DNA of 64,000 nucleotides from the NCBI GenBank assembly GCA_038087875.1, contig CM075989.1:2542001-2606000 (forward strand), given 5' to 3'. This DNA is from Malacoraja senta (Eukaryota). The notes under the pieces were generated by a model. It saw only the letters and a program-made list of their open reading frames with translations, was not told where the DNA came from and did no database searches. Shown one piece after another: positions 11,715 to 60,500 of this stretch. The translations under genes were made by a program, and so were the position numbers. Position 1 is the first letter of the stretch; each line of letters opens with the position of its first letter.

Positions 11715-12862
11715 TGTTTAAGAAAGAACTGCAGATGCTGGTAAAATCGAAGGTAGACACAAAATGCTGGAGAAACTCAGCGGGTGAGACAGCATCTATG
11801 GAGAGGAGGAATTGGCGGCGTTTCGGGTCGAGACCCTTCTTCAGACTGATGACAGGGGAGGGGGTAGGACAAAGAAAGAAAGTGGGCTGAGACAGTGGGA
11901 CTAGTGGGAGGACTGGGAAGGGGGAGGGGATTAGAGAGAGAGAGAACAAGGGCTACCTGAAGCTACAGAAGTCAATGTTCATACCACTGGGGTGTAAACT
12001 ATCCAAGCAAAATATGAGGACTGTCACTTGGACCATCTCCGACATCTCCCTACCGTTTCTAGATCTCACCGTCTCCATCACAGGAAAGACCAATGACCGA
12101 CATCTACTATAAACCTACTGACTCCCACAGCTAACTTGACTACACTTCTTCCCACCCTTTTTCTTGCAAAGACTCTATCCCATACTCCCAATTCCTCTGT
12201 CTACACCGCATCTGCGCCCAGGATGAGGTTTTCCACACCAGGGCATTGGAGATGTCCTCATTATTTAGGGAACGGGGGTTCCCCTCTTCCATTATAGATG
12301 AAGCTCTCACGAGGGTTTCCTCGATATCCCGCAGCTCTGCTCTTACTCCCCCTCCCCCCTCTCGTAACAAGGACAGAGTCCCCCTTGTCTCTACCTTCCA
12401 CCCCATCAGCCGCCGCTAACAACATATAATCCTCCACCATTTTCACCACCTCCAAAGGGATCCCACTACTGGTCACATCTTCCCATCTCCATTCCGTTCT
12501 GCATTCCACAGAGACCGTTCCCTCCGTAACTCCCTGGTCAACTCGTCCCTTCCTACCCAAACCTCCCCCTCCCCAGGTACTTTCCCCTGTAACCGCAGGA
12601 GATGCAACACCTGTCACTTTACCTCCCCCCTTGACTCCCTCCAAGGACCCAAACAGTCCTTCCAGGTGAGGTAGAGGTTCACTTGCACCTCCTCCAACCT
12701 CATCTACTGCATCCACTGTTCCAGGTGTCAACCTCTCTACATCGGCGAGACCAAGCGCAGGCTCGGCGATCATTTCGTTGAACACCTCCGCTCAGTCCGT
12801 CTTAACCTACCTGATCTCCCGGTGGCTCAGCACTTCAACTCCCCCTCCCATTCCCAATCTAC
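11715..12862 (+). mobile_element. Penelope-like (Neptune-type) element: inverted 5' pLTR (11715-12020, minus) plus RT thumb, Cys linker and GIY-YIG (12021-12862, plus)
   Basis: LPFLDLTVSI, TDIYYKPTDSH, SIPYSQF, CNRRRCNTC and LYIGETKRRLGD; an upstream inverted partial pLTR is typical of PLE insertions. Confidence 0.9.
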
Positions 12863-15252
12863 CCTAACAATGCTTCTCTTAATCTTATACATAGTCGTGG
12901 AGCACGGAAACAGGCACCTCGGCACGACTCCTTCATGCCAACCAAGATGCCCGAGCTAATCTAGTCCCATTTGCCCGCATTTGGCCCAAATCCCTCTCAA
13001 CCTTTCCGATCCATGAACCTATCCAAGTACTTCTATCAGCCTGGATGTTCCTGAGAAAATAATCCAACTTGTCCAACCTGTCCTATAGCAAATACCCTCT
13101 AACCCAGGCAGTATTTTAGTCAGCCAGTACCTTGCCTGCCACAGTGAGTATGGAGAACTGCAAACAGGTTCAAGGTGAATTTGGGATCATCATCTGAAAC
13201 ACTGCCTATTCAAAGAAGCCATTACAGAAGCTACATAAATAGTGTCAGAGGTAATGTTTCAGGTTGGGATCCTTCTTCATATTGACCCAAAATGTTGCCT
13301 ATCCATTTTCTCCAGAGGTGCCACTTGGCTCACTCGGTTACTCCAGCACTTTGTATTTTTTTCTGCAATTCCTTGTTCTTAACTAGCGTTAAAGGCGGAG
13401 TAAACCACGTTGTTTGGGGCAGGTCATGGGGAAGAATGAACACGAGGAGGTGGGAAATGGTGCCAAAGAGAGGTAGAGATGGACAATATAATTACCAAGA
13501 GAAGTGAGAAGCAGAAAGAAGTTCACAAAGATCTAGAGAACTGGGTGCAGGTAGATGAAGAGAGGAAGGTGGAAATCCAAGAAAGGAAGAGAGAGATGTA
13601 CGAAACACTGACATGAAAGAGTGGTGATCGAGCGGGATATAGAGGAGACTATTAAAGAAAGAGTGAGGAACATGAGACAGATAGAGGAAGAGGGGTTTGC
13701 ACAAAGACTCAATGAGGCAGGAAAATAGCAGCATCAAAGTACAAGCTGCTGGAAAATGAGTCGTCCAGCATCTTCTGTTCAGCTCCAGATTGCAGCATCT
13801 GCAGTCTCTTGTGTCTCCAACTATATCAGCATTGTGGTGGGACTTCCAACTGGCTACAGTCCATTATGTTTAAATAATGGAACAAAGCATATTATGTTTT
13901 TGCTGAAACATTCTCCTTGGTGAAGGAAGCCAAGCTCAGCTGATTTCCTTGAGATTGAAGGGTGTGAGGGAAGTGCCAAGCTGTACGTCTCGCAGCTCAC
14001 TGGCAGCAGCCTGACGAACACACAGACCAAAGCTATTGATCACACCCGGGAGCAGAGAGAGGGAACCATGGCCCCTGCAAATGGACCCGATCCAGGACAT
14101 GAATGTGACTGAGAAGGTCAAATGGATAATGTGTTTTGTCAATTTGTCAAGTGGTCCCGAAGGACCAGAGCCCAGTTGTTTGTATTGAGCGTCTAGTTTT
14201 TAAATGGAGACATGACCAACTGCAGATACTGGAATCTTGAGCGAAACAGAAAGTGCTGGAGGAACTCTGCCGTGAATGGGTGTTTCAGGTTGGGTCTGAA
14301 GAAGGATCCCGGGCCGAAACATTACCCATCCATTCCCTCCACAGATGCTGCCTGGCCTGCTGAGTTCCTCCAGCACATTCTGCTTTAATCCAGTTTAGAC
14401 AGCACAGTGGCACAGCGGTAGAGTTGCTGTCTAGTAGCGCCAGAGACGTGGGTTCGATCTTGACTATGGGTGTTGTCTGTACGGAGTTTGTACGTTCTCC
14501 CTGTGACCACGTGGGTTTCCTCTGGATGCTCCGGTTTCCTCCCACACTCCAAAGACAGATATTGTAGGTTAATTGGCTTGATAAAATTGTAATTGTACCT
14601 AGTGTGTGTAGGATAGTGTAATTGTGTGGGGATCACTGGTCGGCACAGACCCAGTGGGCCGAAGGGCCTGTTTCCGCGCTGTATCTCTAAACTACACTAA
14701 ACTAAACCAACTTTTAACACATTGCAGCCTCCAAATCCATTTCCATTCATTCGGAAGATTAGCCTTACTGTTTACCATGTACGACATACATGTAATATTT
14801 CCTTCAAATCTGCAGGGCAAATATTTTCCTGACAGTCACGTAATTTCTAAATACTTGCTGAGTATCTATGGCCAAGGGCATGCTTGAAATCCCAGTAAAT
14901 ACCACAATTTCCAAATATTTCCAGGTGGGTAATGGAAGCTCCTGGTGCTAGTTTGTAAATGTCCACACTGTCTTTGTTGATTTTGTTTGCGTAAATCTAA
15001 CGCGTGGTCTACTAAACTAATAGTGAATAAGTAATCTTTTCCATGCTGTTAATCCAATGATTTCATAAGCAGCTGATCGGTGTCCAAAAGGCCCACCCTC
15101 AGTACAGTGCTGGTGTTGCCAATGGGATTGCATTAATATGTGAGGAAGATTTTGTAATAAACAACTAAGCTCTTTGATGCCAGGATACTTCAGCCAGCTT
15201 CAATTGTAATTTAAATATTGTACTTTATGGATATAAAACCATGGCGGTCTTA

Positions 15253-15516: not shown

Positions 15517-18214
15517 TTAGCTTCTGTTTGGAGCAACAGCTCAAAGTGGCACCCACTGTGGTAATACCACCCGTGTAATGAACGCCCCCTTTCATCTTAT
15601 GTTTGAGGCCAGTCAGTCGACGTCAACATGGTTTCAGCTCCTGAATCAATCAAGTTGGATGTACAAAGATAGACACAAAAAGCTGGAGTCACTCAGCGGG
15701 TCACGCAGCATCTCTGGACAAAAGGAATAGGTGACGTTGTGGCTCGAGACCTTTCTTCAGACTGAGAGTCAGGGAGAGGGAAACTAGAGATCTAGAAGGT
15801 ACATCGAATGAATGAATGTAAGATATGCAAAGAGCAACGATGATCAGAGAAAGGTGGATCCCACAGTTGTTGGCTGTGGGGTAGATGATAATGAATGACA
15901 GGGTGAAATTCACCAGGACAACAGTGAAACTAGTACAAGGACTAGGGTGGGGGAGGGATGGAGAGAGAGAGGATGCAAGGGTTACTTGAAGTTAGAGAAA
16001 TCAATATTCAAACCGCTGGCTTGTACCGTCTGATCAAAAAGTGATTTAGATACTCGTCTTCACACGGCAACCTCCCCCACAGTTTGATCGCAGCCATTTT
16101 GCTCTGAGACCATGTACTTTAGTTAACTCCCTCTCTAGGGCTCTTCTGATGTAATGTTAAGATGCTGGGATTCCTGTGGTAATACTCTCCACAGGATTTC
16201 GACTTGGACCTCTGAGCAGCGTACGATTCAGTAAATGGCAATGAAATAAGCCTGCATTTGGAAACATTCTCACTTCCGCATCGATTTGCCTTGTTAACAT
16301 TTGAGGATCAATGATCAAATGGCTATAGACAGCACATATTAGAAATCTGAAATATAAACAGTCAACGCTGCAAGTACCCAGTGGGTGAGGCAGCTTCTGA
16401 GGAGGAAGAATCAGAATTAAAGTTTCAGTTTGACCTTCCCTCACAATGTTTCATTGACATTTCCTAGGTTTCTAGATCTCAGCCGGTCATATTCCCCAAG
16501 CCCTCTTCTCTCCTCTATCCTAGGCCCCTCCCATGGAGACAGAGAGTCATAGAGTCACACAACATGGAAACAGGCCCTTCGGCCCAACGCACTAATGCCC
16601 GTCTACACTAGTCATATTTGCCCATGTTTGGACCGTATCAGCTCGAAATGCTTCCTATCCATGGACCTGCGCAAGCATTTTTGTAAAGTTGCTCTAGTAT
16701 TTGCCTCAACTACTTCCTCTGGCAGCTCTGTACATAAACTGTGATAAACTGTCCCCTCAGGTTCAATTAAATCTTTTCTCTCTCACATCGTCAGACTGAA
16801 GAAGGGTTCTGAACCGAAACGTCACCCATCCATGTTGTAAATGGATGCTGCTTGACCCGCTGAGTTACTTAAGAAATTTATGTCTTACTTTAGTAAACCA
16901 GTATTTTCTTCTCTCTGCTGTTATACTTGTGTACAGCTTGATATTGCCCCTATATAGAATGATTTGATTGGAGACCATGCAAACAAAGCGTTTTGGAATC
17001 AAACCAATACCAAATAAAAATGGCAATTCAAACACAAGGCCTGTGACTTGTTCACATCTTAAATGGAAAGTGTGCAGATACCTTTTAGGGTCAATAATAC
17101 TCTGGAGTTTAGGTGAGAAACATATTGGCATTGGTTACCGTGAGAAAGCAATATTACACATGGAAATCAATCCTGAAGTGTGCTTCACACACAATAAGTT
17201 AATAATACCTCGGAGAACTAGATACTTCTTTGTATTATACTTCATTTCCCCCCACTCCCTCATCTTTGCATAATGAGTTCCGTTTTTCTTTACACCCATT
17301 GTTTCTGCTTGCTCCTGTCCCATTGAATTAAACTTCACATACCTTGACTCCATCCTATCCACACGGGTGCAAACCCTCCCTACCCATGTCCAAGACACCT
17401 GACACGTCCTTCCTCTCTTCAATGACCTCCGTTTTCCAGGCCCCCACTCCCTCATCGTTACCCAGTCTGAAGAAGGGTCTCGACCCGAAACATCGCCCAT
17501 TCCTTCTCTCCAGAGATGCTGCCTGTCCCGCTGAGTTACTCCAGCATTTTGTGTCTATCTTCAATTTAAACCAGCATCTGCAATTCCTTCCAACACATGA
17601 GGTCAGTTTAACTTGGCATTATGTTTGGCACAAACGTTGTGGGCTGTAGGGCCCATTCCTGTACTGTTCTATCTTCTGTGTAAGTCCATGATCTGGAATC
17701 CCACTTCCATCTGAAGATGCTGGAGGAACACAGATGGACATGTAGTCAGTTTGAATAAGGGTCCCGACCTGAACCATTGCCTATCCATTCCCTCCACATG
17801 CTGCTCGACCTGCTGAGTTACTCCAGCACGTTGTGATCTGTTCAGGGAGATCAAGTTCAGTTTCAGTTCAGTTTCATTTATTGTCACATGTATCGAGGTA
17901 CAGTGAAAATCTTTTGTTGTGTGCTAACCAGTCAGCGGAAAGACAATACATGATTACAATCGCGCCAGTTACAGTGTATGGATACATGATAAAGGAATAA
18001 CGTTTAGTGCAAGGTAAACATTTCGTGTATGTTTAGTGCGAGGGTCACCAATGAGGAAGTTAGTAGTTCTGGACTGCTCTCTAGTTGTGGTTTCTTACAT
18101 ATAGGAAGTCACAAGCAGGGCATCCACACTCTATTACAGATATGAGAGAGTTTACCATGCAATGCACTCATTAGACATGCAACTGCAGTGTGAGGCAAGA
18201 ACGTGTTAGAGTTA

Positions 18215-19050: not shown

Positions 19051-19404
19051 GAGCCTTGATTTGTTGCTCATTACATGCAGTTGGCTTAATATGGATAAGT
19101 CCAGTCAGGAGGTTGTAGTGCAACCTTCAGGAGGCCTTGCAGGACAGTGACAACTGCTTATGAAATCAAATCAATCTTCTAATCAAGACCATTACACCAG
19201 CACCTCATGAAACTGAAACAGTCCAAGCACCTGCTGATGCAGCCCGTTGTATCGATATCTGAAGGTAGACATTAATGGACTAAGCACAAAATGAGAATAG
19301 CTCAGCAAGTAACTCAGAAAGTAACTTAATCAGGCAGCATCCCTGGAGGACAAAGATATCTGATGCTTCATGTCAGACTTAAGAAAAGTCATGACCCTAT
19401 CATG

Positions 19405-19880
19405 TCATAGAGTCATAGAGTCTTACAGCATGGAAGCAGGCCCTTTGGCCCAACTTGCCTACACTGGCCAACATGCCCTATCTACACTCGTCCCACCTGC
19501 TTCCGTTTGACCTATATCCCTCTAAGCCCAGCCTATCCATGTACCTGTCTAAATGTTGAGATAATACCTGCCTCAACTACCACCTCCAGCAGCTCGTTCC
19601 ATACACCCACCACCCTTTGTGTGAAAAAGTTACCCCTCAGGTTCCAATTAAATCTTTCCCCCCTCACCTTAAGCCTGTATCCTCTGGTTCTCGATTCCCC
19701 TACTGTGGGCAAGAGAATCTGTGCGTCTATCCGATCTATTCCTTTCATGATTTTGTATAACTCTATAAGATCAACCCTCATCCCCCTGCACTCCAAGGAA
19801 TAGTGTCCTAGCCTGCTCAACCTCTCCCTACAGCTCAGGCCCTCGAGTCCGGCAACATCCATCTCTGCACTTTCCAGCGT
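19405..19880 (-). mobile_element. CR1 LINE 3' fragment
   Basis: RERLSRLG, DLIELYKIMKG, RTRGYRLK, FFTQRVVGVWNEL. Confidence 0.9.
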
Positions 19881-20459
19881 GTCCTCCAGAGATGCTGCCT
19901 GACCCACTGAGTTACTCCAGCACTTTGTGTTCTACGCAAGATTCCAGCATCTGCAGTTCCATCTCCAATAATGGACTGAGACCTGCTAAAGACAAGGTTG
20001 AAGAAAGACACAAAATGCTGGAGTAACTCAGCGTCACAGGCAGCATCTCTGGAGAGAAGGAGTGGGTGACGTTTCAAGTCGAGACCCTTCTTCAGACTGA
20101 CCCTAGATTAAAAGCAAGGAAAAGATGCAGAGCTTTATTCTGTTCTTGGAATCATTTAACACAATTACAGATTCTTGGCTGATGGCACCTTACATCTCTG
20201 CATCAAGATCTTCAGAAGAGTGAGAAATAGAAATGGACTGATCAACAGAAAGCTTTTTGTGCAGTTTGTGTAACAACTCTCTACGGGTTCACAATGATAT
20301 GACAAGAACATCAGAGCTAACATATGATGTGTCCACGTTCACAGTCGTTGCTGCCAGCAGCCATGTTCTGGGTGACGGAACAACCTATTGCAATTGCTTC
20401 ATGCTCTCTCAACAAACTCAAACAAAAATACATACAGATAGAGAAAGCAATTAGGAAAG

Positions 20460-21011: not shown

Positions 21012-22637
21012 ATGCAAGCAATTATTTGTAGTGTGAAGCTGTTCCATTGGGCTGTCTGATCACAGGCACTTACTGGCACAAAGGTGGGCTGTTGAACAGT
21101 TTTGTTGTCAGAATCATATAATACAACTGATCAAAGCTAAACGTAGCAGCTGATGGCCTGTGCAGATAACTGCATGAATCAGTTTGATTGTCATACTGCC
21201 ATTTCCTGACAGATACTTCCCAGAAACAGCCTCCGCCATCGGTCCACTGTTGAAGACACTTTAAGAGGATGGACCAGTTTGGAAAAGCGACTAAATGAAG
21301 CCTTATAACTATTTAGTTTAGTTTAGTTTAGTTTAGAGATACAGCGTGGAAACAGGCCTTTCGCCCACCGAGTCCGCGCCGACCAGCCATCCCCGCACAC
21401 TAACACTATCCCACAAACACCAGAGACAATCTACAATTTTACCAAAACCAATTAACCTACAAACCTGTCGGTCTTTGGAGTGTGGGAGGAAACCGGAGCA
21501 CCCGGAGAAAACCCACGCAGGTCACGGGGAGAACGTACAAACTCCATATATATAAACATAGCACCCATAGTCAGGATCGAACCCGGGTCTCTGGCGCTGT
21601 AGGGCAGCAACTCCACCGCTGCGCCACCGTGCCACCGTGCTGCCCGCAGTGCAGATGTGAAATATTGGGAGCCCATCACGGTGCAGATTGGGGACATTGA
21701 GAAGTCAATTCAAGTGTTCCCAGAAAAATTATTGTTTAATGGCTCAGTGGTTCAATGGTACTTTCTTTATCACATGTACTGAGGTACAGTGACATTCATT
21801 TTTGTAAACAGTTCAGTATGTTTCACTATACAGAAGCAATTACAATCAATATTAATTTCTCTAACTTCAAGTAACCCTTACATCCCCTCTCTCCCCACCC
21901 AAGTCGTACTAGCTTCAAAATCATTTTGTCTGTAATCTTGTCAAAATCTCATTGTCTGTAACTCGTTTTCATCTAGTCCACAACAAACAATGGCCTGTAT
22001 CTTTTATCATTGTTTTCATGACATATCCTTCATTCAATTGTTCTATATCTCTCTATATCATCTCGTGTTTCCCTTTCCCCTGACTCTCAGTCTGAAGAAG
22101 GGTCTCGACCCAAAACGTCACCTATTCCTTTTCTCCAGAGATGCTCCCTGACCCATTGAGTTACTCCAGCTTTTTGTGTCTATCTTCAGCACTTAGATAC
22201 CTTAGATAAGCATCTCAGAGACAGTAAAGTGTACAGCAGTGGTACACTGAGATTTACAGAGTGTATACAGTATGTGTATACAGAGTCGCTAGATTGCTAT
22301 AGGAGTATAGAGTTCTTAACATGACCATGAAGGCCCGTTGTCCTGGCGGCGTTGCTGGGTCAGCCTGGCCAAGTGTGGCCATAGGTGACCTTCATCGCTG
22401 AATTGTTGATGAGTTATATGCCTAACGCACTGGGTTTGTCAATATGAAGTATCTTGCCAGAAGTTTTGACCGATAGCTGAGCACGAGATAAAGAATGGGT
22501 GAAAGTTGTTGTCAAGGGACACCATGGGTTAAGGCAGATAATGGTTAAAGTGGACAGTGGGTTAAGGCCGATCAGCCCAAGATGTAAGATGATCCCCATG
22601 CCTGAGTCAGGGACCTCACTTAAACCTGGTAAGTCAG

Positions 22638-22859
22638 AGATAGACACAAAATGCTGGAGGAACTCAGCGGATAGGCAGCATCTCTGGATAGTAGGAATGG
22701 GTGATGTTTCGGCTTGAGACCCTTCTTCAGACTGCAGGGTCTCAACCTAACATGTCACCCATTCCTTATCTAGAGATGCTGCCTGTCCCGCTGAGGTACT
22801 CTAGTATTTTGTGTCTATCTTCGGTTTAAACCAGCATCTGCAGTTCCTGCCTATGACCT
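22638..22859. mobile_element. Palindromic Penelope pLTR-derived element with TSD TAAGTCAG
   Basis: Arms ~22640-22710 and ~22750-22820 are inverted; TAAGTCAG at 22630-37 and 22860-67. Confidence 0.8.
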
Positions 22860-26879: not shown

Positions 26880-27149
26880 CTATCACCAAGGTCTTGGTAT
26901 AGGGATGAGCTTATTCGATATATGGTATTGAAAGCTGTAGTCAATGTAAAGTATTGTGATGTAGGTATTCTTACTGTCAAGGTATTGCAAGCGAGATAGC
27001 AACTTTCAGAGACCAACTATTCTTGTATGTAAGTTGAATGGGGCTAAATAATCTGAAGAAGGGTCTCGACCCGAAACATCACCTATTCCTATTCTCCAGA
27101 GAAGCTGCCTGACCCGCTGAGTTACTCCAGCATTAAACCAGCATCTGTA

Positions 27150-27610
27150 GCTCCTTCCTACACAACATTGTCTTGTCAGACTGACACAAATCTGGGCCAT
27201 TTTTAAAGCACTTCCTTGCGGTCAATGTTAGGGATACTGGACGCTAGTCATTGATGCAGGTCACCTTATTTTTCCTGGGGACTGGAATGATGGAGGTCTC
27301 CTTGAAGATGAGGATGGAAGTCAGTTTAAGTGACGTGATGAAGATGTTGATGGGGAATGTGACTAATAGTTCGGCGCAGCATTTTACTGCCCATCCGGGA
27401 TCTCCATCCAGTCCAGCCACCTTCTGAGAAGTTACCTGCATGAAAATAGACCTGACTTCTGCCACAGAGATATACGGACAGAGCCAGGGGGATGGGAGAA
27501 CGAGCCTGTTCAGGGCGGGCACATCCAGTAGGGTTGCATTGTTGGCAGAGATCTCCCCCCCATTTTGGCTTGCAGTCCATATTGCTATTCAGGCTCTGCC
27601 ACAGTCACCT
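27150..27610 (-). mobile_element. Rex1/Babar LINE RT fragment
   Basis: KVAGLDGDPGWAVKCCAELL, FKETSIIPVPRKNKVTCIND*RPVSLT. Confidence 0.85.
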
Positions 27611-28075: not shown

Positions 28076-29436
28076 TGTAAACGGCTCAACAGATACAGGT
28101 CTGAAGTTTAAATCATCTTTAATCATATAGTGTAGCAGAGCGGTACAGTGGGTTGTTAGTTCATTGCTACCGCTAACATAACTATGTAATGTAGGAAATG
28201 GATGTTAATATAAAGTGTACAGTAAGGTGGAGTTAATGATGCTACACTACTCTGATTGGTTCACATGCAATAACAAATCTACATCCTTCCCCGTAAAGAG
28301 AAAAGGTTGTTAAACAAATGTTAAACACATACAGTTAAACGTACTCGCCATACCTGTCAGGTGGTCTACTAATTCGACCCGAGCACGTACGGACAAACCC
28401 CTCCCCCTCCATGCCAGAAAAGTTAGTGGGAGTGGGAGGCAGGGAACCCGAAAAGGAGAATGCAGTCCTATTGAACGTTTTATTTGCGATTTAAAATACA
28501 TGGCTCAGCGATGTCGTTTTGGGGAAATTTCGAATGAGCTGATACGGGACAAACTTGTTAGTGGTATGTCTGTTCAGAAGCTCAAGACAGAGCTACTTCG
28601 TAATGCCGATCTAACTCTCGAACAAGCTGTGCATGCCTGCCGCACGTCGGAGGTGGTGGCCCCACTAAGCGACCAGTTTGACACACAGAAAAAGAGTATA
28701 AACCAGACAGGCTTCACTAAACAAGCCACGTCGACAGCAAACAGAAGATTTATGAATGAACCGCCGCAAAGGTGTCCTAACTGTAACTACTTCCACAACA
28801 AAGGTCGGCTATTCTGTCCAGCGAACGGCAAGCCATGCAACTACTGCAAGAAGATGAACCATTTAGCCATTTGCTGCAGGTCCCGTGGGAACCACAATTC
28901 CAGTTCGGCGTCTAATCTGCACCTGCTGCAACAAGACCAAACATTTTCCGACTCCCAAGAACAGCTCGAAGATGCCCACGAGGATGATCCAATTAGCTCA
29001 TATGAAGAGTCTACTGTTCACACCCTCCTCCACACTGCTGGTAAGCTTTTGGATCCCTCTGTGTCATGCTAATTAATAACAAGCCTGTGAAGGCCAAATT
29101 GGATACCGGGGCGTGAGTGAATGTAATGTCCCTGAACATCTATAACAAGATAAGAAATAATGAGACCTTGACTAGAGACGGCTCCATCTTGCATGCCTAT
29201 GGGGGGGGGAGGTGCTCCATCCCACTTCTGACACCATGTAAATGACTTAACAGACACAGTTCTGAAGTTTAAATCATCTTTAATCATATAGTATAGCAGA
29301 GTGGGTTGTTAGTTCATTGCTACCACTAACATAACTACGTAATGTAGGGAAATGGGTGTTAATATAAAGTGTACTGTAAGGTGGAGTTAATAATGCTACA
29401 CTACTCTGATTGATTCACATGCAATAACCATCTACA
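28076..29436 (-). mobile_element. Internally deleted and inverted Gypsy LTR retrotransposon (LTRs 28076-28283 and 29237-29436; TSD GGTCC)
   Basis: Direct ~200-bp TG...CA LTRs; GGTCC at 28071-75 and 29437-41; minus-strand PBS TGGTGTCAGAAGTGGGAT (29219-36); minus-strand PPT GGGGAAGGA (28284-92). Confidence 0.93.
28450..29200 (+). pseudogene. Gypsy gag C-terminus (CCHC zinc knuckles) and start of protease
   Basis: ERFICDLKYMAQRCRFG, IRDKLVSG, DLTLEQAV, CPANGKPCNYCKKMNHLAICC; then frameshifted AKLDTGA*VNVM. Confidence 0.9.
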
Positions 29437-45007: not shown

Positions 45008-48000
45008 TGAGGCAGCAGGTCTACCAGCTGTGCCACTGGGTCACCATGGAATTAGAACTAGTGTGAATGGATGATTAATGGTTTGCATGGATTGGTTGGG
45101 CCGAAGGGCCTGCTTCCATGCTGTATCTTTCAACCAATCAAAACAAAGTGGATTAGCTTGAATTGTGATCATTCATTTATTACTGTGACATGCACGGAGA
45201 TACAGTGAGAAGGTTTGTTTATGCGCTCTCCCGACAAATCATACATAATACAATCAATCTGTCAACAAATACAACAGGTAGTGGAAAGATAAAATACCAG
45301 AGTGCAGAATATGGTGTTACAGCATTATTGAGTTAATTACAGAGAAAACGCAGATTAAATAACAAGCAAGTCTGCAATGAGGTAGTTTGGGAGATCAGGA
45401 CCACAGAGGGGAAGAATCTGGTCCTGAGTCTGGTGGTATGTGTTTTCAAGATTTTGTATCTCCTGCCCAACAGGAGAGGAAATAACTGGGATGAAAACAG
45501 TTAGAACATAGAACATGAAACAGTACAGCACAGGAACAGGCCCTTCGGCCCACAATGTCTATGCTGAACATGATGCCAAGATAAACTAGTCTCGTCAGCC
45601 TGCACATGATCCACATCCTTACACTTCCCGCATGTCCATGCGCCTATCTAAAAACCTCTAAAAGTTTTTGATTATGTTGCCGTCTTTCCTGAGACAGGGT
45701 GAAGTGTAGATGGAGTCAATGGTGGGGAGTTAGATCTGTATCGGACCGGGCTACATCAACAGTTCTCTGCAGTTTCTTGCGATCTTGGGCAGCTTTTGCG
45801 AAACCAAGCTGTGATGAATTCCGATCGAACGCCTTCTATGGAACTTCTGTAGTTCCATGCACTCATCGCACCTCAGAAAAGCTGAGGCTAACTTTGTGGA
45901 GCAACCTTCAATCCCTACCTCTTGCCAATCCCAAAATATTGCTCCACCACTGGTCCACTTCTAAATCCTAAGTCCATTTCAAAACCTACCTATTTGAGTG
46001 CTTTGGATCAAAACACAAAGTGCTGGAAGAACTCAGTGGGTCGGGCAGCATCAGTGGAAGGAATAGACAGGTGATGTTTTGGGTTAGGCCCCTTTTTCAG
46101 CCTGAAAATCATCGCTCTTCATATCACCATGGGAGCTTCAGAGACAAACCTTGATGGCTTCTCTGCAAACTGCCTTCAGAAGTGTTGCCGTGTTCAACCG
46201 CTATTTCAACATAATGCTATTTTAGCTGCAATAAAATGCACCAAGCATCTTCATTGTATGACAAAACAAAACTAGAAATGGATAGGAAAGAACTGAGATG
46301 CCAGTTTATACCAAATACAGGCATAAAGTGCTGGAGTAATTCAGCGGGTCAGGCAGCATCTCTGGAGAAAGGGAATAGGTGACGTTTCGGATCGAGGTCC
46401 TCCTTAAGACTACTAATGGATCTATTTCAGGATGGACAGCCAAAGGTTTGGCTAAAACAATCTATTTTTAGGAGCACATTAAAGGAGAAACAAAGGCAAA
46501 AATGTTGGGAAGGGGATTCCTGGAGTGTAAGGCACTGCTGTCAATGTGCAATGGTACAATGGTTTCATCATATTCGCAGGTACCAGGTACAGTGAAATAC
46601 ATTTTTGCATTCAGCTGGTGGTGAAACAATCAAAATCAGGGAAGCTCAAAAGAAATGAGTGATTGCGGTGGTGTAGAGGGAAGAGACCATCAGGAAATTG
46701 AAAATAATGCATGATAACGATGCCACAAATGGAAGTTTGTGGAATGATACAGCAGGAAGACAGACCCTTCAGCCCACCACGCACACCATTAGGCCCCCAT
46801 GTACACTGATCCTATACTCATCCCATGTTTCATGAACATGATGCTAAGTTAAACCAATCTCCTTGCCTGCATTTGATCCATATTCCTCCATTCCCTGCAT
46901 AACAACGTGCTTATCTAAAAGCCTCTTAAATGCCACTATCGTATCTGCTTCCACCACCACCCCTGGCAGTGTGTTCCAGGCACCCACCTCCCTCTGTGTA
47001 AAAAATGCTTCCCCACACATCTCCTTTAAACTTTGTCCCTTTCACATCAAATCTAGTCATTGACATTTCCACCCTGGGACATTGGTTCTGATTGTCTACC
47101 CCATCAATGGCTCTCTCAACTTTATATCATTCTCTCAGGTCTCCCCTCACCCTCTGATGCTCCAGTGAAAGCAATCTAGGTTTGTCCATGCATTAGGGTC
47201 TGAAGACAGGTCTCGACCCGGAACGTCATCTATTCCTTTTCTCCACGATGCTGCCTGTCCCGCTGAGTTACTCCAGCATTTTGTGTCTATCTTCTTTCAA
47301 CTCCCCCAGATTCTGTAACTTATCTACGCTAGAGGCAGGTTGTGGTGACCAATTAACCTTTCAATGTGCATCTTTGGGATGTGGGAGGAAGCTGGAGCAC
47401 CTAAAGGAAACCCACACATCAGGAGAAACTTCTCCCTGTGAGCTACTGACACATGGAGCGCCCGAGGTCAGGATCGAACCGGGGTCTCTGGAACTGCTGG
47501 GCAGCGGCTCGACTAGCTGTGCCACTCTACCATCAGAGTTCCCGCCGTAACCATCCTGTGCTCATTGGAACCAAAACAGAAAAGCGCCAAGATACAGTCA
47601 GGTGCACCTTTTCGATTTGATTCTCTCCAGGGGAGAGGAGAAAGGAAATGCAGTTGAGCCAACTCTTCTGTCTGTGTCAAGAAGATGGATGAGCGAACGG
47701 AACAACTCATTGATTCATATTCAGCCCAGCTTTGGCATCCAGTCAATGGGAAACATTGTCTGCTCATCGCTCTTGGATTAATCACTGTCCAATGCCACCA
47801 CTGAAGGGTCAATTGGATCAAAAGCTCAGGATCAAGATCGTCCAAATCTGCCAGGGCCTCACTGACAATTATTATGTTTGCACCTGAGTTATAGTTTGTA
47901 ACTGATGGCAGCAGAGTAATTTCTCACACAGGACTGTCCAATAACACTTTGTTGATCTGCTACAGTTGAAGGTGAGAATACTGCGGGATTAAGGCAGGAA

Positions 48001-50010: not shown

Positions 50011-50017
50011 CACATAC

Positions 50018-50592
50018 AGAAATGCTACACTTGTCGCTTTACCTCCCCCCTCGACTCCATCCAAGGACCCAAGCAGTCTTTCCAGGTGAGGCAGAGGTTC
50101 ACCAGCACCTCCTCCAATCTCATCTACTGCATCTGCTGTTCCGGTTGTCAACTTCTCTACATCGGTGAGACCAAGCGCAGGCCTCCGCTCGGTCTGCAAT
50201 AACAAACCTGATTTCCCAGTGGCTCAGCACTTCAATTCCCCCTCCCATTCTGAATCCGACCTTTCTGTCCTGTGCCTCTTCCATTGCCAGAGTGAGGCCC
50301 AGCACAAATTGGAGGATCAGCACCTCACATTTCGCTTGGGTAGTTTACACCCCAGTGGTATGAACATTGACCTCCAATTTCAGATAGTCCTTGCTTTCTC
50401 CCTTCTTCCCCTCCCCTTCCCAGCTCTCCCACAAGCCCACTGTCTCCGCCTCTTCCTTTCTTTTTCCCGTCCCCCCCCCCCCCCCCCACATCAGTCTGAA
50501 GAAGGGTCTCGAACCCGAAACGTCACCTAATCCTTCTCACCATAGATGCTGCCTCACCCGCTATGTTTCTCCAGCATTTTTTGTCTACCTTC
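50018..50592 (+). mobile_element. Penelope-like element 3' part (GIY-YIG plus pLTR)
   Basis: NLIYCI, LYIGETKRR, PVAQHFNSPSH, KLEDQHLTFRLGSLHPSGMN. Confidence 0.9.
50493..50528 (+). ncRNA. Minimal type I hammerhead ribozyme motif in a PLE pLTR (best-preserved copy)
   Basis: CTGAAGA-A-GGGT(CTCGA)ACCC-GAA-ACGT-C: CUGANGA and GAAA cores, stem II, palindromic ACGT stem III, GUC cleavage triplet. Confidence 0.7.
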
Positions 50593-51667
50593 AGATTTGT
50601 AGGTTCATTAGCATGGTGTAAATGTTCAAAAATGTCCCTATGTCTGTAGGGTAGTATTAATGTGTGAGGATCGCTGGTCGGTGGGCTGAAGGGCCTGTTT
50701 CCATGCTGTATCTAAACTAAACTAAACTAAAGGTGAGCATAATAAATGTAAACCTAATTCAGTTCAACAACAAAGAGAGAAATGGGACAAAAGTAAGATT
50801 TCCTCCTATTCCTAAAAAGACACAAAGTGCTGGAATAACTCAGCAGGTCAGGCAGCATCACTGGAGGAAATGGATAGGTAATGTTTCGTGTCAGGACCCT
50901 TCTTCAGCCCTATCTGTCAAGTTACTCCAGCACTCTGCATCCTTTTGTGTAAACACGCACCTGCAATTCCTTCTTTCTACATTCTTCCTATTCTGTGGGC
51001 AACCTGTCTGGTGGTGACTCTTTATGCGCTGGTCCCGGCAATGGATCTGTTCTCATTCATGACAACTGCTCCACTCTCTTAACTCGTTCTTTATTCCCTT
51101 CATTCTGTATCTGTACACTGCGGAAGGCTTGATTGTAATCGTGTATAATATTTTTGCTGACTGGTTAGCACTCAACAAAAAATCTGTACACTGTACCTTG
51201 GTACATGTGACAATAAATTAAACTAGTCACAAAATGCTGTAGTAACTCAGCGGGACAGGCAGCATCTCTGGAGAGAAGGAATGGGTGACGTTTAGAAGGG
51301 TCTCGACCCATTCCTTCTCTCCAGAGATACTGCCTGTCCCGCAGAGTTACTCCAGCATTTTGTGTCTACCTTCGATTTTAAACCAGCATCAGCAGTTCTT
51401 TCCTAAACTAAACTAGACAGCACTAGCACACCCAACACAGTTTAAGCCCTCATAAGGAATGATCTCCAGGGAGTCAGCATTTAATTCAATGGACCTGAAT
51501 TCACTGAAAGGTCAACAAGATGACATGGATCAAGTGTTTGATTAATGGTTCGCACTCCACCCAGCATTATTGATGAATTGATATTTAATTTGTATGTAAA
51601 CGCAACATAAAATAGATAGAGAGAGAGGAACTGTGATTTCAGATCGGGCATCACATAGAAGGAGTAA

Positions 51668-52221: not shown

Positions 52222-53499
52222 TAAGAAAATGTCACTAGACTCTCTGGCAAATGGCACAGCACGTATGGCATCAGCAGCACAAGCATTCATCTGCCACAAA
52301 CAATAATCTTAAAGATGGTTCTGAGAAAACCAGTATCATCTTGGTACCAGTTATACTGGAATTAATTAAATCTCTGATCAGGCAATGAACCCAAGAGGAA
52401 ATATTATGGCAATTCAGAATGAGTTCATTGGGAATTTAAGTTTTTTTTTAAATCTATCGAGGTGACTAAATCCTAATATTTTCTTTTACATGACGTTCAA
52501 CTCTAATTAGATGGCATATCATGAAAGGGATGTAAGTAGACCATTTGGATCTCAGCACTTCATGGGGAACAATGATAATTGTGACTGATTGCCCAGGGTG
52601 CTACAAGAGCAGATAGTGCCATTAACTTTATTTAAAAAAAGACTGAATCAGAGTCATGTGGCCCATCATATCGATGCTGACAGACAAGGCAACTCCGCCA
52701 ATCTCATTGTGTAGGAAGGAACAGCAGAAGCTGGTTTAAACCGAAGTTAGACACAAAATGCTGGAGTAACTCAGCGGGACAAGCAGCATCTCTGGAGCGA
52801 AGGAATAGGTGACTTTCCGGGTCTGAAGAAGGTTTTCGACCCGAAACGTCACACGTCCCTCCTCTCCAGAGATGTTGCCTGTCCCGCAGAGTTACTCCAG
52901 CTTTTTGTGTCTATCTTCCATCTATTTCATTCCTCTCTCTGTTCCTCCCCCAGCCCCTACACCCATCCATCAATAAATTATTTCCTCATGTCTATGCAAT
53001 ATTTTTTTAAAGGAGTTGAAAGGTTCAAAGGTATTTTATTGTCACGTGTACCAATTAAGGTACAGTGAAACTCGATTTACCAAAGTGGATTCGGCTTCTG
53101 ACTCCAACACACATTGGGCAGTGAGTTTGGATCATAACCATTGTTTGGGAGAAAGGCTTCTCTTCACAACCCCTTGTATCTCAGGTCCAAAATGTTACGT
53201 CTGTGTTCTAACTGGATAGAATTGATCGATTGAAAGATACAGCATGGAAACAGGCCCTTTGGCCCATCGAGAGCGCACCACCTGTTCACACTAGTTCTAT
53301 GTTATCCCACAGTCGCATCCACTCCCAACATACTCGGGGCATTTCACAGAAGCCAATTAACCTACAAGGCCACACGTCTTTGAGATGTGGGAGGAACCTG
53401 GAGCACCTGGGTCTCTGGAACTATTAGGTTCAATATACAGAGAGAAGCAGAGTAAAGGCACAGAGCAAACCAGTAGGTGATGCTGGCCGTGAAAACCGT

Positions 53500-54724: not shown

Positions 54725-54927
54725 ATCAGTCACTGAAAGTAAGCGTGCAGGTACAGCAGGCAGTGAAGAAAGCCAATGGCATGTTGGCCTTCATAACAAG
54801 AGGAGTTGAGTATAGGAGCAAAGAGGTCCTTCTGCAATTGTACAGTGCCCTAGAGAGACGACACCTGGAGTATTGTGTGCAGTTTTGGTCTCCAAATTTG
54901 AGGAAGGACATTCTTGCTATTGAGGGT
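54725..54927 (+). mobile_element. CR1 ORF2 internal fragment
   Basis: VKKANGMLAFI, RHLEYCVQFWSP. Confidence 0.88.
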
Positions 54928-55122
54928 AGAGAAAAGTGCTGGAGAAACTCATCGGGTGCAGCAGCATCTATGGAGCGAAGGAAATAGGCAACGTTTCGGC
55001 CCGAAATCTTTCGGCCCGAATCGTTGCCAAACCTTTCGGCCCGAAATGCCCGCTAAACTTTATTAAACATTGTCTGGCTTCTTAAATGTCTCTCCAATCC
55101 TTCTCCCTCCCTCCCTCTCTCT

Positions 55123-57565
<2,443 letters not shown>

Positions 57566-60500
57566 TAATTCTGCTCCTATCACTTATGACCTGCTTCCTG
57601 CCTGGGCAGCGATTGTCGCAGCTCTTTCACTTGCTGACCCTGAGGTCTGTTACTACCAGGCACTATACCTGGCAAGCTGAAAGTGCAGCCCTTAGGACAA
57701 GTGACACTTGCACAGAGAGAGGCAAGAGGTGAGGCTATTTCACACGGCAATCATCTCTGATCAAACCTGTGTCCGTGTGAGTCAACTAGGGTCAGACAAA
57801 CTCGTGAATAAGGGAGCAGGCGCGCAAAGGCTCTCTGCTCCATTTAACCTGCCCAACATGGTTCAAATAGCTAGAGAAGTGCATGCCCCACTCCACTCAA
57901 AACCATCTAATCTCTGGGAAGGAAAGAAAGAACAAACATTCTCCGAAACAATGTGGGAGGAAAATACTCATTCCAAACCCATTACGCACTTGAATCTAAT
58001 TCAGGAGATAATACTAGCCTTGATAATTCCTTTAACTATCACCTTCAATAACATTAATAATAGCTACTGCTGGTCTCACTAATTGAACAAACACTTTATG
58101 AATGGGTCCTTGTTTTAATATTTATTCCAGTAATTCTAAATTGGAAATTCCACTGGACTCCAGGGTAAAATTCCAATAATCTAACCATCCCATTTGTTCC
58201 TAATCCAACACACCAGTATTCCCACTTGAAGTGTGCATCAGTCAAAATTCAATCAGATAGAAAATAGAATGAGGCTGAGTTAGAGAGAAGGCAGGAATTT
58301 TAAGCAGGGAGCATTGTGAGAGGTTTGGTACATTTGGTAAGATAGCAAGTGTCGTCTTTTTTAGCTGGAAGGGTGCATGGGGGAGGTAGACTTTGTCTAA
58401 AAGCATGAGTCATCCTGTGGTTGCCTGTGGCGAACTGAATCTATGCAGAGTGAGCACTTGACAAGGATTCAGGCTGCATTATCAAACCTCAAAAGGTATA
58501 CACAGAAGTCCAAGTGCTTCATCTGAGTCATCAACATAAACACAAAGTGCTGGAGCAACTCAGCGGGTCAGGCAGCATCTCTGGAGAAAAAGGATGGGTG
58601 GCGTTTTGTGTCTGAAGAAGGGTCTGGGCATGGCCAGGGCAGCTCAGTGGTGCAGCAGTAGAGTTGCTGCCTTACAGCACCAGAGTCCCGGGTTCGATCC
58701 TGACTACGGGTGCTGTCCGTACGGAGTTTGTACATTCTCCCCGTGACCTACATGGGTTTTCTCCGGATGCTCCGGTTTCCTCCCACACTCGAAAGATGTA
58801 CAGGTTTGTAGGTTGATCGGCTTGGTATAATTGTAAATTGTCCCTAGTGTGTGTAGGATAGAGTCAATGTACGGGGATCACTGGTCGGCACGGACTCGGT
58901 GGGCCGAAGGGCCTGCTTCCATGCTGTAATTCTAAACTAAACTAAACTAAACTAAACTAAAAGATGTTGCCTGTCCTGCTGAGTTACTCCAGCTGAGTCA
59001 CATTCATGCAGCACGGAAACAGGCCCTTCGGCCCAACTTGCCTACACCCACCAGGATGCCCCATCTACACTAGTCCTGTCGAGGCGCAGTGATACTGTTG
59101 CTGCCTTACAGCGCTTACAGTGCCGGAGACCCGGGTTCGATCCTAACTATGGGGGCTGTGTGAACGGAGTTTGCACGTTCTCCCTGTGACCGCGTGGGTT
59201 ATCTCCGAGGTCTTCAGTTTCCTCCCACGGTGCTGGCTCGATGGGCCGAATGGCCTCCTCCTGCACCTATTTTCTACTACAAAGACATACAGGTGTGTAG
59301 GTTACTTGGCTTGGTATAAATTTAAATTGTCCCTAGTGTGTGTGGGATAGTGTTAATGTGCGGGGATTGCTGGTCGGTGTGGACTCAGTGGGCCGAATGG
59401 CCTGTTTCCGCGTTGTATCTCTAAACTATTTAATGTGGAGATAGATACATTATTGAGAGGTTTGGGGATTGAGGGTGACGGAGACCAGGGGGAGAGGAGG
59501 ATGTGGACTGTGTCTTTGCACTAGAGACTTCGCCTTTTGCACCATTCTAGTTACCAGATATTATGGTTATGACTCTATTGCATTTTTGATTATTATATAT
59601 GTGTGTAATTGTGTTTACAGGCTTGATAAGCTGCAGCAAGTAACAAATGGCATTATTCCATTGTTGGTGTTGCCTGATTCTTGACTGAAGTAAATCAGCC
59701 ATGATCATAGTGAATATAGGGCAGGACTCCATTAGATATTTCTTGATTAGAATGGGTGTCAAGGGTTATGGGGAGAACGCAGGAAGATGGGATTAGAAGG
59801 CAGAGATCAGCCATGATTGAATGGGCCGATAGTAGGCTCAATGGGCCGAATGACCTAATTCTACTCCTATAACTTGTGAACTGGTGACTCGAGGGGGCAA
59901 GTGGGCCTCTCCTATTATTTCCTTGGTTCTTGTGTGGACTCAGAGCCACATCGTTGCAGATCAGGCAAAGGGGAAACAGAATCCATCAGCATCATTGGAT
60001 TATCTCCCACATTGCCCCCCACTTTCCCCTCACTCTGATCCATGAGGGAAACGTCATCCCGGGAGCTACTCCCATGAGAGGATGGGAGGGGAAGGACGAG
60101 GATGGAGAACGAGTGACAGCCTAGTGTTACATATAGTTCACAGGAATAACACATTATAAATGTTAAACAGAGGCACAGACAAAGGGAAGCAAATATGCTG
60201 ACAGTGAGTAAGCATTGTGAAGGTGGCTGTGGGGGCGTTTAGTCTGTTTTTAAAAACACATATGGATTTTTTTCTCCACCAAAGACATGCATCGGTATTA
60301 CGGCATGATAGTTAATATTCCGTTGCCAATCAACTGAGCTGAGCAACAGCTCAACGAGTGTCACACCAACGCCCCCGACAATGCATCGTGCTGTGCCTGA
60401 AGGTATCTGTTGCTATATAACCCACTTCCACCCTATCCCAGGGCATCCGTGGCTTCCAGAGTCATCTCAAGCCCCATCAATGGAAGAAGCACCAGGCTTC

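What the first reader, a model, noticed from the sequence alone, without database searches (positions are those of the whole stretch)
11800..58630. About 20 hammerhead-ribozyme motifs carried by short Penelope-derived repeats
Seen: a recurring consensus GTCTGAAGAAGGGTCTCGACCCGAAACGTCACC. Plus-strand copies start near 14296, 16796, 17467, 22092, 27053, 33705, 47200, 50496 and 52823. Minus-strand copies lie near 11400, 11830, 15745, 20080, 22720, 31095, 32220, 46390 and 50895. It has the CUGANGA and GAAA cores, a GGGT/ACCC stem II, one extra A after A9, a palindromic ACGT stem III and a GUC site. The motif lies just downstream of the GIY-YIG ORF at 50018-50592 and 32105-33101. Established: Penelope-like element pLTRs carry minimal hammerheads that cleave as dimers. 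Inference: most copies here have no ORF and behave like a retrozyme/SINE-like family mobilised by the resident PLE. At about one copy per 3 kb, any host transcript crossing this region could be self-cleaved.
Basis: partly seen in the sequence, partly recalled or inferred. Interest (0 to 1): 0.7.

Follow-up and report, generated by a model that had tools for sequence, protein, structure and literature searches.

The report
Decayed Penelope retrotransposon ends with hammerheads
The repeats are the short, mostly decayed tail ends of a known kind of jumping gene in a shark-or-ray genome, each carrying that element's minimal self-cutting RNA motif; this is largely ordinary, but their sharply shared starting point hints at how the element copies itself.

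Summary
Real. All 18 listed copies are present. A profile finds 44 pieces at 37 loci of a ~135-nt repeat: the 3' end (pLTR) of Neptune-type Penelope-like elements (PLEs) of a cartilaginous fish, with the described minimal type I hammerhead. Target-site duplications, two 3' ends 30-35 nt apart (the PLE 'tail') and 11 head-to-head fold-back loci match published PLE insertions.

Not supported: retrozyme (no tandem units), a separate SINE lineage (short and long copies mix in a weak tree), and cleavage of host RNA. Only 2 of 23 hammerheads are intact, helix I is 2 bp, copies decay neutrally, and one related RNA run shows no read ends at the cut site.

Unexplained extra: 9 solo copies start within 5 nt at TCAGT, about 30 nt upstream of the cut site (0.2 expected), and no fold-back arm passes that point. 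Best guess: reverse transcription starts inside the RNA and runs off its 5' end, like strong-stop DNA; two such cDNAs join through the ribozyme's palindromes. The scan noted similar fold-back PLE ends in two other shark-type genomes.

The parts
32106..33102 (-). Longest PLE remnant: RT C-terminal part, CX4CXXC linker, GIY-YIG endonuclease, pyrimidine-rich 3' UTR, hammerhead with 4-nt core deletion (32203-32235), long 3' tail
50017..50595 (+). 5'-truncated PLE remnant (broken EN, UTR, tail with short 3' end), flanked by a 10-bp TSD
50494..50526 (+). One of two intact minimal hammerheads (extra A in loop II); predicted cut between 50524 and 50525
19998..20100 (-). Solo copy starting at TCAGT with the second intact hammerhead (two G-U pairs in stem II; cut predicted between 20068 and 20067)
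11714..12019 (-). PLE 3' end (EN C-terminus, UTR, hammerhead with U16.1 changed, long tail)
12020..12884 (+). PLE body fragment (RT C-terminal part to EN) joined in opposite orientation to 11714-12019
9343..9890 (+). 5'-truncated PLE remnant with EN C-terminus; 5' half of hammerhead deleted; 10-bp TSD with 1 mismatch
15664..16029 (-). PLE 3' end with UTR, decayed hammerhead
21835..22190 (+). PLE 3' end with UTR, hammerhead with G12 lost
11325..11467 (-). Older-subfamily tail with about 40 nt of pyrimidine-rich UTR
33702..33830 (+). Near-consensus solo copy starting at the TCAGT boundary, long tail; G10.1-C11.1 pair broken
17463..17596 (+). Solo copy starting at the boundary, directly preceded by a PLE RT fragment (17295-17456)
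2926..3050 (+). Old solo copy starting at the boundary, TSD 8-11 bp
16791..16922 (+). Old solo copy starting at the boundary
27051..27166 (+). Solo copy starting at the boundary, 19-nt internal deletion in the tail
46005..46105 (-). Old solo copy starting at the boundary
46280..46412 (-). Solo copy starting at the boundary, 7-bp TSD
47198..47298 (+). Solo copy starting at the boundary, short 3' end
10482..10607 (-). Solo copy starting inside the hammerhead (consensus position 12)
29436..29562 (+). Old solo copy starting inside the hammerhead (position about 15)
30995..31110 (-). Old solo copy starting inside the hammerhead (position about 8)
16336..16443 (-). Very decayed solo copy
31702..31774 (+). 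Very decayed solo copy
37062..37186 (-). Very decayed solo copy
159..213 (+). Tail fragment without hammerhead
19879..19961 (+). Tail fragment without hammerhead, tail-to-tail with 19998-20100
34497..34549 (+). Tail fragment without hammerhead
58960..58994 (+). Tail fragment without hammerhead
22636..22856 (.). Head-to-head fold-back pair (short + long arm), junction in the hammerhead, exact 8-bp TSD; folds at -139 kcal/mol
36149..36348 (.). Fold-back pair joined at the TCGA palindrome of loop II (long + short arm)
50812..50975 (.). Fold-back pair of an older subfamily, 12-bp TSD with 1 mismatch
51222..51408 (.). Fold-back pair, 13-bp TSD with 1 mismatch; source of the below-threshold Rfam miRNA hit
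52708..52920 (.). Fold-back pair joined through a 3-nt GTC/GAC overlap
14216..14395 (.). Fold-back pair of an older subfamily, followed by a SINE
13247..13385 (.). Old fold-back pair, one arm only about 37 nt
17708..17840 (.). Old fold-back pair, second arm weak (E 0.07)
19308..19398 (.). Old fold-back remnant, second arm weak
54908..55045 (.). Fold-back remnant whose junction 15-mer is repeated about 4 times
58531..58626 (.). Fold-back remnant, second arm 16 nt, cut by a SINE
37716..37765 (.). Possible twelfth fold-back remnant (both arms below the E<1e-3 cut)

Best explanation
The repeats are dead-on-arrival insertions of the 3' end (pLTR) of several subfamilies of an endonuclease-bearing, Neptune-type Penelope-like element. 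The hammerhead belongs to the parent element's own RNA, where it probably works as a weak, protein-assisted or dimeric ribozyme; in the scattered copies it is a decaying passenger. Steps: (1) The element's protein nicks both strands of the target and starts reverse transcription inside the RNA at one of two sites about 30-35 nt apart. Shown for the anole PLE in PMC11167929; inferred here from the two 3' ends. (2) Most cDNAs stop at a fixed point, the TCAGT just 5' of the hammerhead core and about 30 nt upstream of the cut site. The pile-up is shown; its cause is inferred. [quoted passage not shown] (3) When both target strands prime, the two cDNAs join head to head through short self-complementary words in the ribozyme (TCGA, GTC/GAC, TCAG/CTGA), giving a TSD-flanked hairpin with one long and one short arm (geometry shown, joining inferred). 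(4) Long copies come from priming in the downstream pLTR with ordinary 5' truncation. Confidence 0.85 is for the identity and passenger status; the run-off cause alone is about 0.4.
For: The motif sits 90-250 nt downstream of the EN coding end in 5 remnants; closest proteins are chondrichthyan PLE fragments, 54-65% identical. A zebra-shark homologue reads through into a peptide that fits the same motif (P0003). 3' ends are bimodal in the window (about 95-106 vs 124-135) and in other runs (loose ends at 33789-33800 vs 33827). Arms are one long, one short in 6 of 6 measurable pairs (P about 0.014; one of the six may be cut by a SINE). TSD-like repeats scoring >=8 flank 6 of 31 loci vs 2% by chance (P 3e-5), three of them whole fold-back units. 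9 solos start in positions 1-5 against 0.2 expected (P 2e-12; 7e-7 if three doubtful ones are moved). Their upstream 200 nt share no similarity. None of the 44 pieces starts at the cut site. Neutral decay: core 6.5% vs private non-core 7.6%, CpG G12 changed in 6 of 22. Arms within a pair are no more alike (0.07-0.16) than between pairs (0.13).
Against: No full-length or tandem element is in the window and no whole genome was held, so the parent, its ORF start and its promoter were not seen. The profile begins at the TCAGT, so the pile-up rests on the upstream comparison, and fast-changing pyrimidine UTRs could hide short extensions (3 of 9 solos have pyrimidine-rich flanks). Upstream lengths for the Poisson test were read by hand. 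The RNA run shows no pile of molecule starts at TCAGT, though fragmented poly(A) reads from another species are a weak test. In D. virilis the start site is 46 nt before a 75-nt intron that ends at helix I (PMC2377424, PMC4209133). By that analogy the CAG here is a splice acceptor, not a start site. Two old copies have A, not T, at position 5, which breaks both the initiator-like word and the first pair of helix I.
Confidence: 0.85

Rival explanations
1. Same insertions, but the fixed 5' end is a roadblock and not an RNA end: the pyrimidine tract plus CAG is the 3' splice site of a PLE intron, or a stretch the enzyme cannot cross, and reverse transcription of unspliced RNA stalls there.
For: Long copies have a 75-94% pyrimidine tract ending in CAG right before the core; a GT follows the EN stop region about 85-250 nt upstream. 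In D. virilis the intron ends at helix I (PMC4209133). The base after AG varies (T, A, G) while CAG stays.
Against: No matching skip is among the 15 best-supported joints (1820 not shown). Only 1 of 7 long copies stops inside the tract, where stalls would be expected (11423).
Confidence: 0.35
2. The short form is a self-propagating non-autonomous element (SINE-like, driven by an internal polymerase II promoter at TCAGT) that has its own lineages and borrows the PLE protein.
For: Fixed 5' and 3' ends, TSDs, and tail depth about 23-fold over the EN body in a DNA run and 37-fold in the RNA run (rough, not copy numbers). An ATG frame in the tail is open in 2 long-tailed copies (19879, 32233) but has an in-frame stop in the commonest subfamily.
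Against: EN-bearing 9804 falls among the commonest short copies and short 55012 among the long ones. Loose ends upstream of the solo copy are pyrimidine-rich PLE-type UTR in RNA runs. Flanks are not shared between copies. The tail frame does not resemble N-termini of 82 full-length homologues.
Confidence: 0.2
3. One reading: the copies are live ribozymes that cut host transcripts crossing the region, or a retrozyme family.
For: The consensus has all core nucleotides; 2 copies are intact; 5 of 22 catalytic halves are intact. On paper a hybrid site can be drawn between same-strand neighbours 425 nt (11848/11423) and 671 nt (17463/16792) apart. A few head-to-tail joints exist elsewhere in a DNA run (52 contigs).
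Against: Helices I and III give only 2 bp each per site. The dimer fold lies about 14 kcal/mol above the best co-fold for 50492 (nearest-neighbour model). No tandem units in the window. Sense/antisense read ratio is 0.93 over the hammerhead vs 0.98 over the tail, and 0.93 vs 0.90 on the other copy. Published minimal motifs are inactive as monomers and weak as dimers (PMC4209133); the anole one needs protein (PMC11167929); 8 of 9 Xenopus dimers did not cut (10.64898/2026.07.22.740005).
Confidence: 0.07
4. The fold-back units are a MITE-like or hairpin-RNA family amplified or kept as palindromes.
For: About 80-90 pairs, -113 to -142 kcal/mol for the four youngest units; TSDs flank whole units; 52.8 kb and 58.6 kb share one junction.
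Against: The other junctions all differ; the two that agree have different tail variants; arms are not kept alike; arm ends follow the PLE tail rule.
Confidence: 0.05

Closest known systems
Minimal type I hammerheads of metazoan Penelope-like elements (Cervera and de la Pena 2014, PMC4209133)
   Same: Core boxes, extra base between A9 and G10.1, G10.1-C11.1, palindromic 15.2-16.2 without loop 3, place in the pLTR, mostly single dispersed copies, pairs on opposite strands
   Different: Stem II 4 bp and stem I only 2 bp (as in D. virilis) instead of 7-8 and 4-5 bp; cartilaginous fishes are not named in the main-text parts I read (supplements not seen)
Canonical EN+ PLE insertions, Neptune type (Craig et al. 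2021, PMC8557442; Arkhipova et al. 2013, PMC3846280)
   Same: C-terminal GIY-YIG with CX4CXXC linker, heavy 5' truncation, adjacent inverted 5'-truncated copy, optional 30-40 nt tail at one end, 8-13 bp TSDs, solo pLTRs
   Different: Here most insertions are pLTR-only, and their 5' ends and inversion junctions pile up at the 5' edge of the hammerhead; I found no report of that
Anolis Poseidon element PAc (Frangieh et al. 2024, PMC11167929)
   Same: Two internal priming sites give the tail; both strands are cut and extended; uncleaved RNA is the template; no RNA-seq ends at the cut site
   Different: Different clade; in PAc the ORF starts inside the hammerhead, here the ORF start was not located
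Non-LTR retrozymes (Cervera and de la Pena 2020, PMC7229834; Li et al. 2026, 10.64898/2026.07.22.740005)
   Same: Non-coding, type I hammerhead, related to PLE pLTRs, reported in one chondrichthyan genome
   Different: Retrozymes are head-to-tail tandems of 150-450 nt, mostly with canonical motifs and circular RNAs; these copies are single or head-to-head, with minimal motifs

Membership tests
PLE minimal type I hammerhead | Core CUGANGA, GAAA and UH in type I order | tested here: met
   Met in the consensus; only 2 of 23 copies keep the whole motif
PLE minimal type I hammerhead | Extra base between A9 and G10.1; G10.1-C11.1 pair; palindromic 15.2-16.2 without loop 3 | tested here: met
   Consensus; first stem II pair standard in 16 of 22 rows
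PLE minimal type I hammerhead | Helix I | tested here: inconclusive
   Only 2 bp possible; first pair U-A or U-G in 15 of 21 rows, unpaired in 5; a 2-bp helix I is described for D. virilis (PMC4209133)
PLE minimal type I hammerhead | Covariation in the stems | tested here: not met
   Covariation score 0.101 vs 0.093 in shuffles, 78 of 500 reach it. Copies of one genome have little power; no DNA of relatives could be fetched
PLE minimal type I hammerhead | Self-cleavage as dimer or with protein | not testable with these tools
   Needs in vitro assay; RNA run shows no end pile-up
EN+ Penelope-like element (Neptune type) | RT followed by C-terminal GIY-YIG | tested here: met
   Remnants align to the C-terminal third of 890-aa RT+EN proteins; Pfam GIY-YIG E 4e-4, below cut-off
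EN+ Penelope-like element (Neptune type) | CX2-5CxxC linker before the EN (Neptune, Nematis) | tested here: met
   CX4CXXC in the 32 kb remnant and in homologues
EN+ Penelope-like element (Neptune type) | Placement in the Neptune clade by RT phylogeny | not tested
   No named reference set at hand; Nematis not excluded
EN+ Penelope-like element (Neptune type) | Optional 30-40 nt tail, inverted 5'-truncated copy, TSD | tested here: met
EN+ Penelope-like element (Neptune type) | Partial tandem with pLTRs on both sides of a full ORF | tested here: inconclusive
   None in the window; no genome held; some head-to-tail joints in a DNA run
Non-LTR retrozyme | At least two consecutive head-to-tail units, each with a complete hammerhead | tested here: not met
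   No such array among 25 tandem-repeat rows or in the 55 profile hits
Non-LTR retrozyme | Canonical type I motif with a 6-bp helix I and loop 1-loop 2 contacts | tested here: not met
   Helix I 2 bp; no Rfam hammerhead hit at E<=1
Non-LTR retrozyme | Abundant circular RNA | not testable with these tools
   Only a poly(A) run with raw reads was on offer
SINE / non-autonomous retroposon | Own lineage, separate from the autonomous partner | tested here: inconclusive
   Short and EN-bearing copies mix in a 35-row tree of about 70 columns with low support; leans against
SINE / non-autonomous retroposon | Polymerase III head from tRNA, 5S or 7SL RNA | tested here: not met
   The unit begins at the hammerhead and is wholly pLTR; no such Rfam hit

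The most novel reading that the evidence does not exclude
The most abundant short repeat of this genome is the Penelope counterpart of retroviral strong-stop DNA. The element's protein primes 100-135 nt inside its own capped RNA, runs off a start site at TCAGT and integrates the product, singly or as two cDNAs annealed through the ribozyme's palindromes. The copies would then map the promoter in vivo, place the hammerhead about 30 nt behind the cap (so that cleavage decaps and silences the mRNA instead of freeing it), and could re-transcribe themselves as a polymerase II, ribozyme-headed SINE.
Probability: 0.3. Interest if true: 0.6.

Novelty: new member of a known kind. Interest (0 to 1): 0.3.

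Why it matters
As found, it extends PLE minimal hammerheads to a cartilaginous fish at very high density, which is expected, and it removes the worry of region-wide host RNA cleavage. The useful part is mechanistic. What PLE hammerheads do, and how inverted pLTRs arise, are open questions. A genome with this many insertions whose 5' ends and inversion junctions fall in one 27-nt stretch, upstream of the cut site, lets both be tested by counting. It agrees with in vitro data that uncleaved RNA is the template, and it points to two-strand priming followed by annealing at the ribozyme's palindromes.

Tried and rejected
No whole genome was held, so no genome-wide counts. Exact and degenerate pattern scans found nothing in viral contigs, metagenome contigs or prokaryote genomes; the EN query found no confirmed locus in metagenomes. 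Cross-species covariation therefore stays untested. Rfam gave only three below-threshold miRNA hits caused by hairpins. RNAalifold on 22 copies did not recover the hammerhead fold, only a 4-bp tail hairpin; single-copy folds were not better than shuffles (z -1.4 to +0.6). A long-range tail stem (8 bp, 93% paired) has no compensatory change. The idea that the tail ATG is the ORF start found no support: no likeness to N-termini of 82 full-length homologues and no N-terminal PLE fragment in the window. A downstream-promoter-element match at +28 to +32 is 4 of 5 letters by eye and is not counted. No RNA holder was listed as such. Splicing of the putative intron was not among the joints shown. No sign of A-to-I editing: A>G is 92 of 623 places in the RNA run vs 50 of 314 in the DNA run. 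Host genes: 150 of 211 candidate ORFs scanned, only LINE-type hits; short exons would be missed. Rejected: 5' ends made by ribozyme cleavage (none start at the cut), amplified palindromic units (junctions differ), retrozyme arrays.
Full report
OBSERVATION. The 33-nt motif occurs 8 times at up to 3 mismatches and 22 times at up to 9; shuffles give none. The motif heads a repeat of about 135 nt. A profile from 12 copies finds 55 hits, 44 at E<1e-3, and nothing better than E 5.5 in the reversed window. I number the tail consensus from T1 of TCAGT: C3 of the ribozyme is position 6 and the cut falls between 33 and 34. The 44 pieces make 37 loci (sorted by hand): 7 reach upstream into PLE UTR or coding sequence, 19 are solo pieces, and 18 are arms of 11 head-to-head pairs (7 with both arms at E<1e-3). 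A twelfth, weaker pair lies at 37.7 kb.

WHAT THE REPEAT IS. It is the 3' end of a Penelope-like element. Remnants at 9343-9653, 12020-12884, 32108-33102 and 50017-50599 align to the C-terminal third of 890-aa RT+endonuclease proteins, and a further RT piece lies at 17295-17456. The best named relatives are PLE fragments of whale shark, stingray, zebra shark and bamboo shark, 54-65% identical, so the host is a cartilaginous fish. That it is a skate is my recollection of the repeat, not a tool result. The CX4CXXC linker before the GIY-YIG domain marks Neptune or Nematis (PMC8557442, passages); I ran no clade tree. None of the remnants is an intact ORF. Pfam gives GIY-YIG at E 4e-4, under its cut-off. 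A zebra-shark homologue reads through past the EN into a peptide that fits the same motif (P0003): indirect evidence that the arrangement is shared across the group.

THE RIBOZYME. The consensus meets the description of PLE minimal hammerheads in PMC4209133 (parts 1-2 of 4 read): core boxes, an extra base after A9, G10.1-C11.1, and palindromic 15.2-16.2 with no loop 3. Helix I can form only 2 bp, as described there for D. virilis. Rfam has no matching hit. In the copies the motif is decaying. Of 23 that span it, 2 are intact (20099, 50492, 25 rows scored, 2 dropped as junction artefacts). Non-CpG core positions differ in 14 of 216 cells against 89 of 1168 for non-core columns without shared variants (p 0.67), and G12, in a CpG, is changed in 6 of 22. 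Against all non-core columns the core is more conserved (6.5% vs 13.4%, p 0.003). That difference comes from variants shared by three or more copies, which touch 20 of 74 non-core and 0 of 10 core columns (p 0.11). This fits selection on parent elements and none on the copies, but the test is weak. Stem covariation does not exceed shuffles.

INSERTION SIGNATURES. 3' ends fall in two groups, about 95-106 and 124-135. Contigs and reads of four runs show the same two ends. This is the PLE 'tail', which PMC11167929 (parts 1-2 of 4 read) ties to two internal priming sites. In 6 of 6 measurable fold-back pairs one arm is long and one short (P about 0.014; the 14.3-kb arm may be cut by a SINE). That matches the tail 'present only at one end' (PMC8557442; PMC3846280, parts 1-2 of 5 read). 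Direct repeats scoring 8 or more flank 6 of 31 loci tested, against 2% by chance (P 3e-5); three enclose a whole fold-back unit, so each such unit is one insertion. Arms within a pair differ by 0.07-0.16, arms of different pairs by 0.13, and junctions differ from locus to locus except one shared by two different tail variants. The hairpins are therefore made anew each time and are not maintained.

THE 5' ENDS. Nine solos start at positions 1-5, six more probably inside the ribozyme (three very decayed), four downstream of position 40, and none at the cut site. The nine share no upstream similarity with each other or with the long copies, whereas five pairs of long copies do. With a truncation rate taken from the seven long copies, 0.2 starts are expected in those 5 nt (P 2e-12; lengths read by hand). 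If three solos with pyrimidine-rich flanks are treated as slightly longer, P is 7e-7. In the pairs, arm ends lie at positions 1-27 apart from two at about 33-35, and none passes position 1 (read by eye). The joins use 0-4 nt overlaps, among them the TCGA palindrome of loop II and GTC/GAC. So cleaved RNA is not the template, as in the anole work, and something ends the cDNA about 30 nt upstream of the cut.

MECHANISM. Shown: geometry, ends, TSDs, decay. Taken from PMC11167929: both strands are nicked and extended from internal sites on uncleaved RNA. Inferred: two cDNAs of the same sense can only be joined head to head through self-complementary words, which the ribozyme supplies. For the stop at TCAGT I prefer a template 5' end (about 0.4). 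An mRNA that starts in the upstream pLTR carries the priming sites 100-135 nt from its cap, and priming there runs off at once. TCAGT resembles an initiator (consensus recalled); PLE pLTRs are reported to hold initiator-type promoters (PMC2377424, passages; PMC3846280). The rival (about 0.35) is a roadblock at a 3' splice site or pyrimidine tract. The tract plus CAG looks like an acceptor, the D. virilis intron ends at helix I, and two old copies have A at position 5. The RNA run shows neither a start pile-up nor the intron skip among the joints listed.

HOST CLEAVAGE AND RETROZYME CLAIMS. No head-to-tail unit exists in the window, so the criterion of Li et al. (10.64898/2026.07.22.740005, parts 1-3 of 5 read) and the description in PMC7229834 (passages) are not met. 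A few head-to-tail joints occur elsewhere in a DNA run (52 contigs, spacer unknown). Eleven loci place the motif in hairpins; the four youngest fold at -113 to -142 kcal/mol. Five of 22 catalytic halves are intact, and hybrid sites can be drawn between neighbours 425 and 671 nt apart, but each rests on 2+2 bp. The dimer fold of 50492 is about 14 kcal/mol above the best co-fold. In the poly(A) run (another organism, 6% of the run read, 31,092 reads laid, strand inferred from a 6:1 LINE control) no place has a pile of ends. Sense/antisense depth is 0.93 over the ribozyme and 0.98 over the tail for one copy, 0.93 and 0.90 for the other. Fragmented reads and fold-back copies blunt this test. No host domain was found in 150 of 211 candidate ORFs. 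A separate SINE-like lineage is not shown: EN-bearing 9804 groups with the commonest short copies and short 55012 with long ones (low support). Tail depth exceeds body depth about 23-fold in DNA contigs and 37-fold in RNA, which run-off and a SINE would both produce.

NOVELTY. PLE hammerheads, their dispersed single copies, opposite-strand pairs, tails and solo pLTRs are in print. Searches for this family in sharks or skates and for the 5'-end pile-up or a strong-stop reading found nothing specific, but the library lacks most subscription papers. The dimer-cleavage paper of Lunse et al. 2017 was not held (recalled only). PMC6155905 (passages) added nothing. I did not see the supplements of PMC4209133 or of the Li preprint, which covers one chondrichthyan genome; they may list this motif. 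Two earlier scan reports on other shark-type genomes reached the same ordinary reading (seen after my own analysis); they are unchecked notes, not support.

VERDICT. Observation confirmed, interpretation partly supported. A new member of a known kind, interest 0.3. The fixed 5' end upstream of the cut site is the part worth a genome-wide count and a 5'-end experiment.

Noticed in passing
window 17295-17465: A PLE RT fragment is joined directly to a tail at the TCAG boundary, with a 15-16 nt duplicate of its end about 190 nt upstream (near 17250): possible template jump.
   Followed up: partly
window 54994-55047: About four tandem copies of a 15-nt fold-back junction of the hammerhead stem, next to a long (AC)n array.
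   Followed up: partly
window 55123-56976: (AC)n array of about 936 units.
   Followed up: no
window 28314-29069 (+): 252-aa open frame that looks by eye like a gag protein of an LTR retrotransposon, with a cysteine knuckle; no Pfam hit.
   Followed up: partly
window 39443-41988 (-): AT-rich L1/Tx1-type LINE fragment with RVT_1 (E 1e-25) and weak zf-RVT hits.
   Followed up: partly
window 30403-30578: Long imperfect palindrome unrelated to the PLE (below-threshold Rfam MIR847 hit); MITE-like.
   Followed up: no
window-wide, e.g. 9925-10237, 33944-34253, 58674-58961; 3724-4670, 20321-20905, 42117-42587: Many copies of a SINE-type repeat ending in (CTAAA)n and of CR1-type LINE 3' ends (names recalled). 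Several SINEs sit right at PLE tail ends (14396, 50600, 58626, 58960).
   Followed up: no
window 32308-33051: Poly(A) reads on the PLE body run about 2:1 antisense to the element, while the tail shows no strand bias.
   Followed up: partly
window 33792-33827; 19879-20100: Tail-to-tail joints (short 3' end against long 3' end) recur in DNA contigs, and one such pair of different subfamilies is in the window: possible insertion preference for the element's own tail.
   Followed up: no
tail positions 55-125, e.g. window 33754-33830: An ATG-started frame in the tail is open in two long-tailed copies and stopped in frame in the commonest subfamily; a conserved 8-bp long-range stem spans the same stretch.
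   Followed up: partly
window 25521-25615: Five perfect copies of a 19-nt unit.
   Followed up: no
window 1584-1826 (+): Weak GDSL-lipase-like hit (E 5e-4), probably ORF1 of a LINE (attribution recalled).
   Followed up: no
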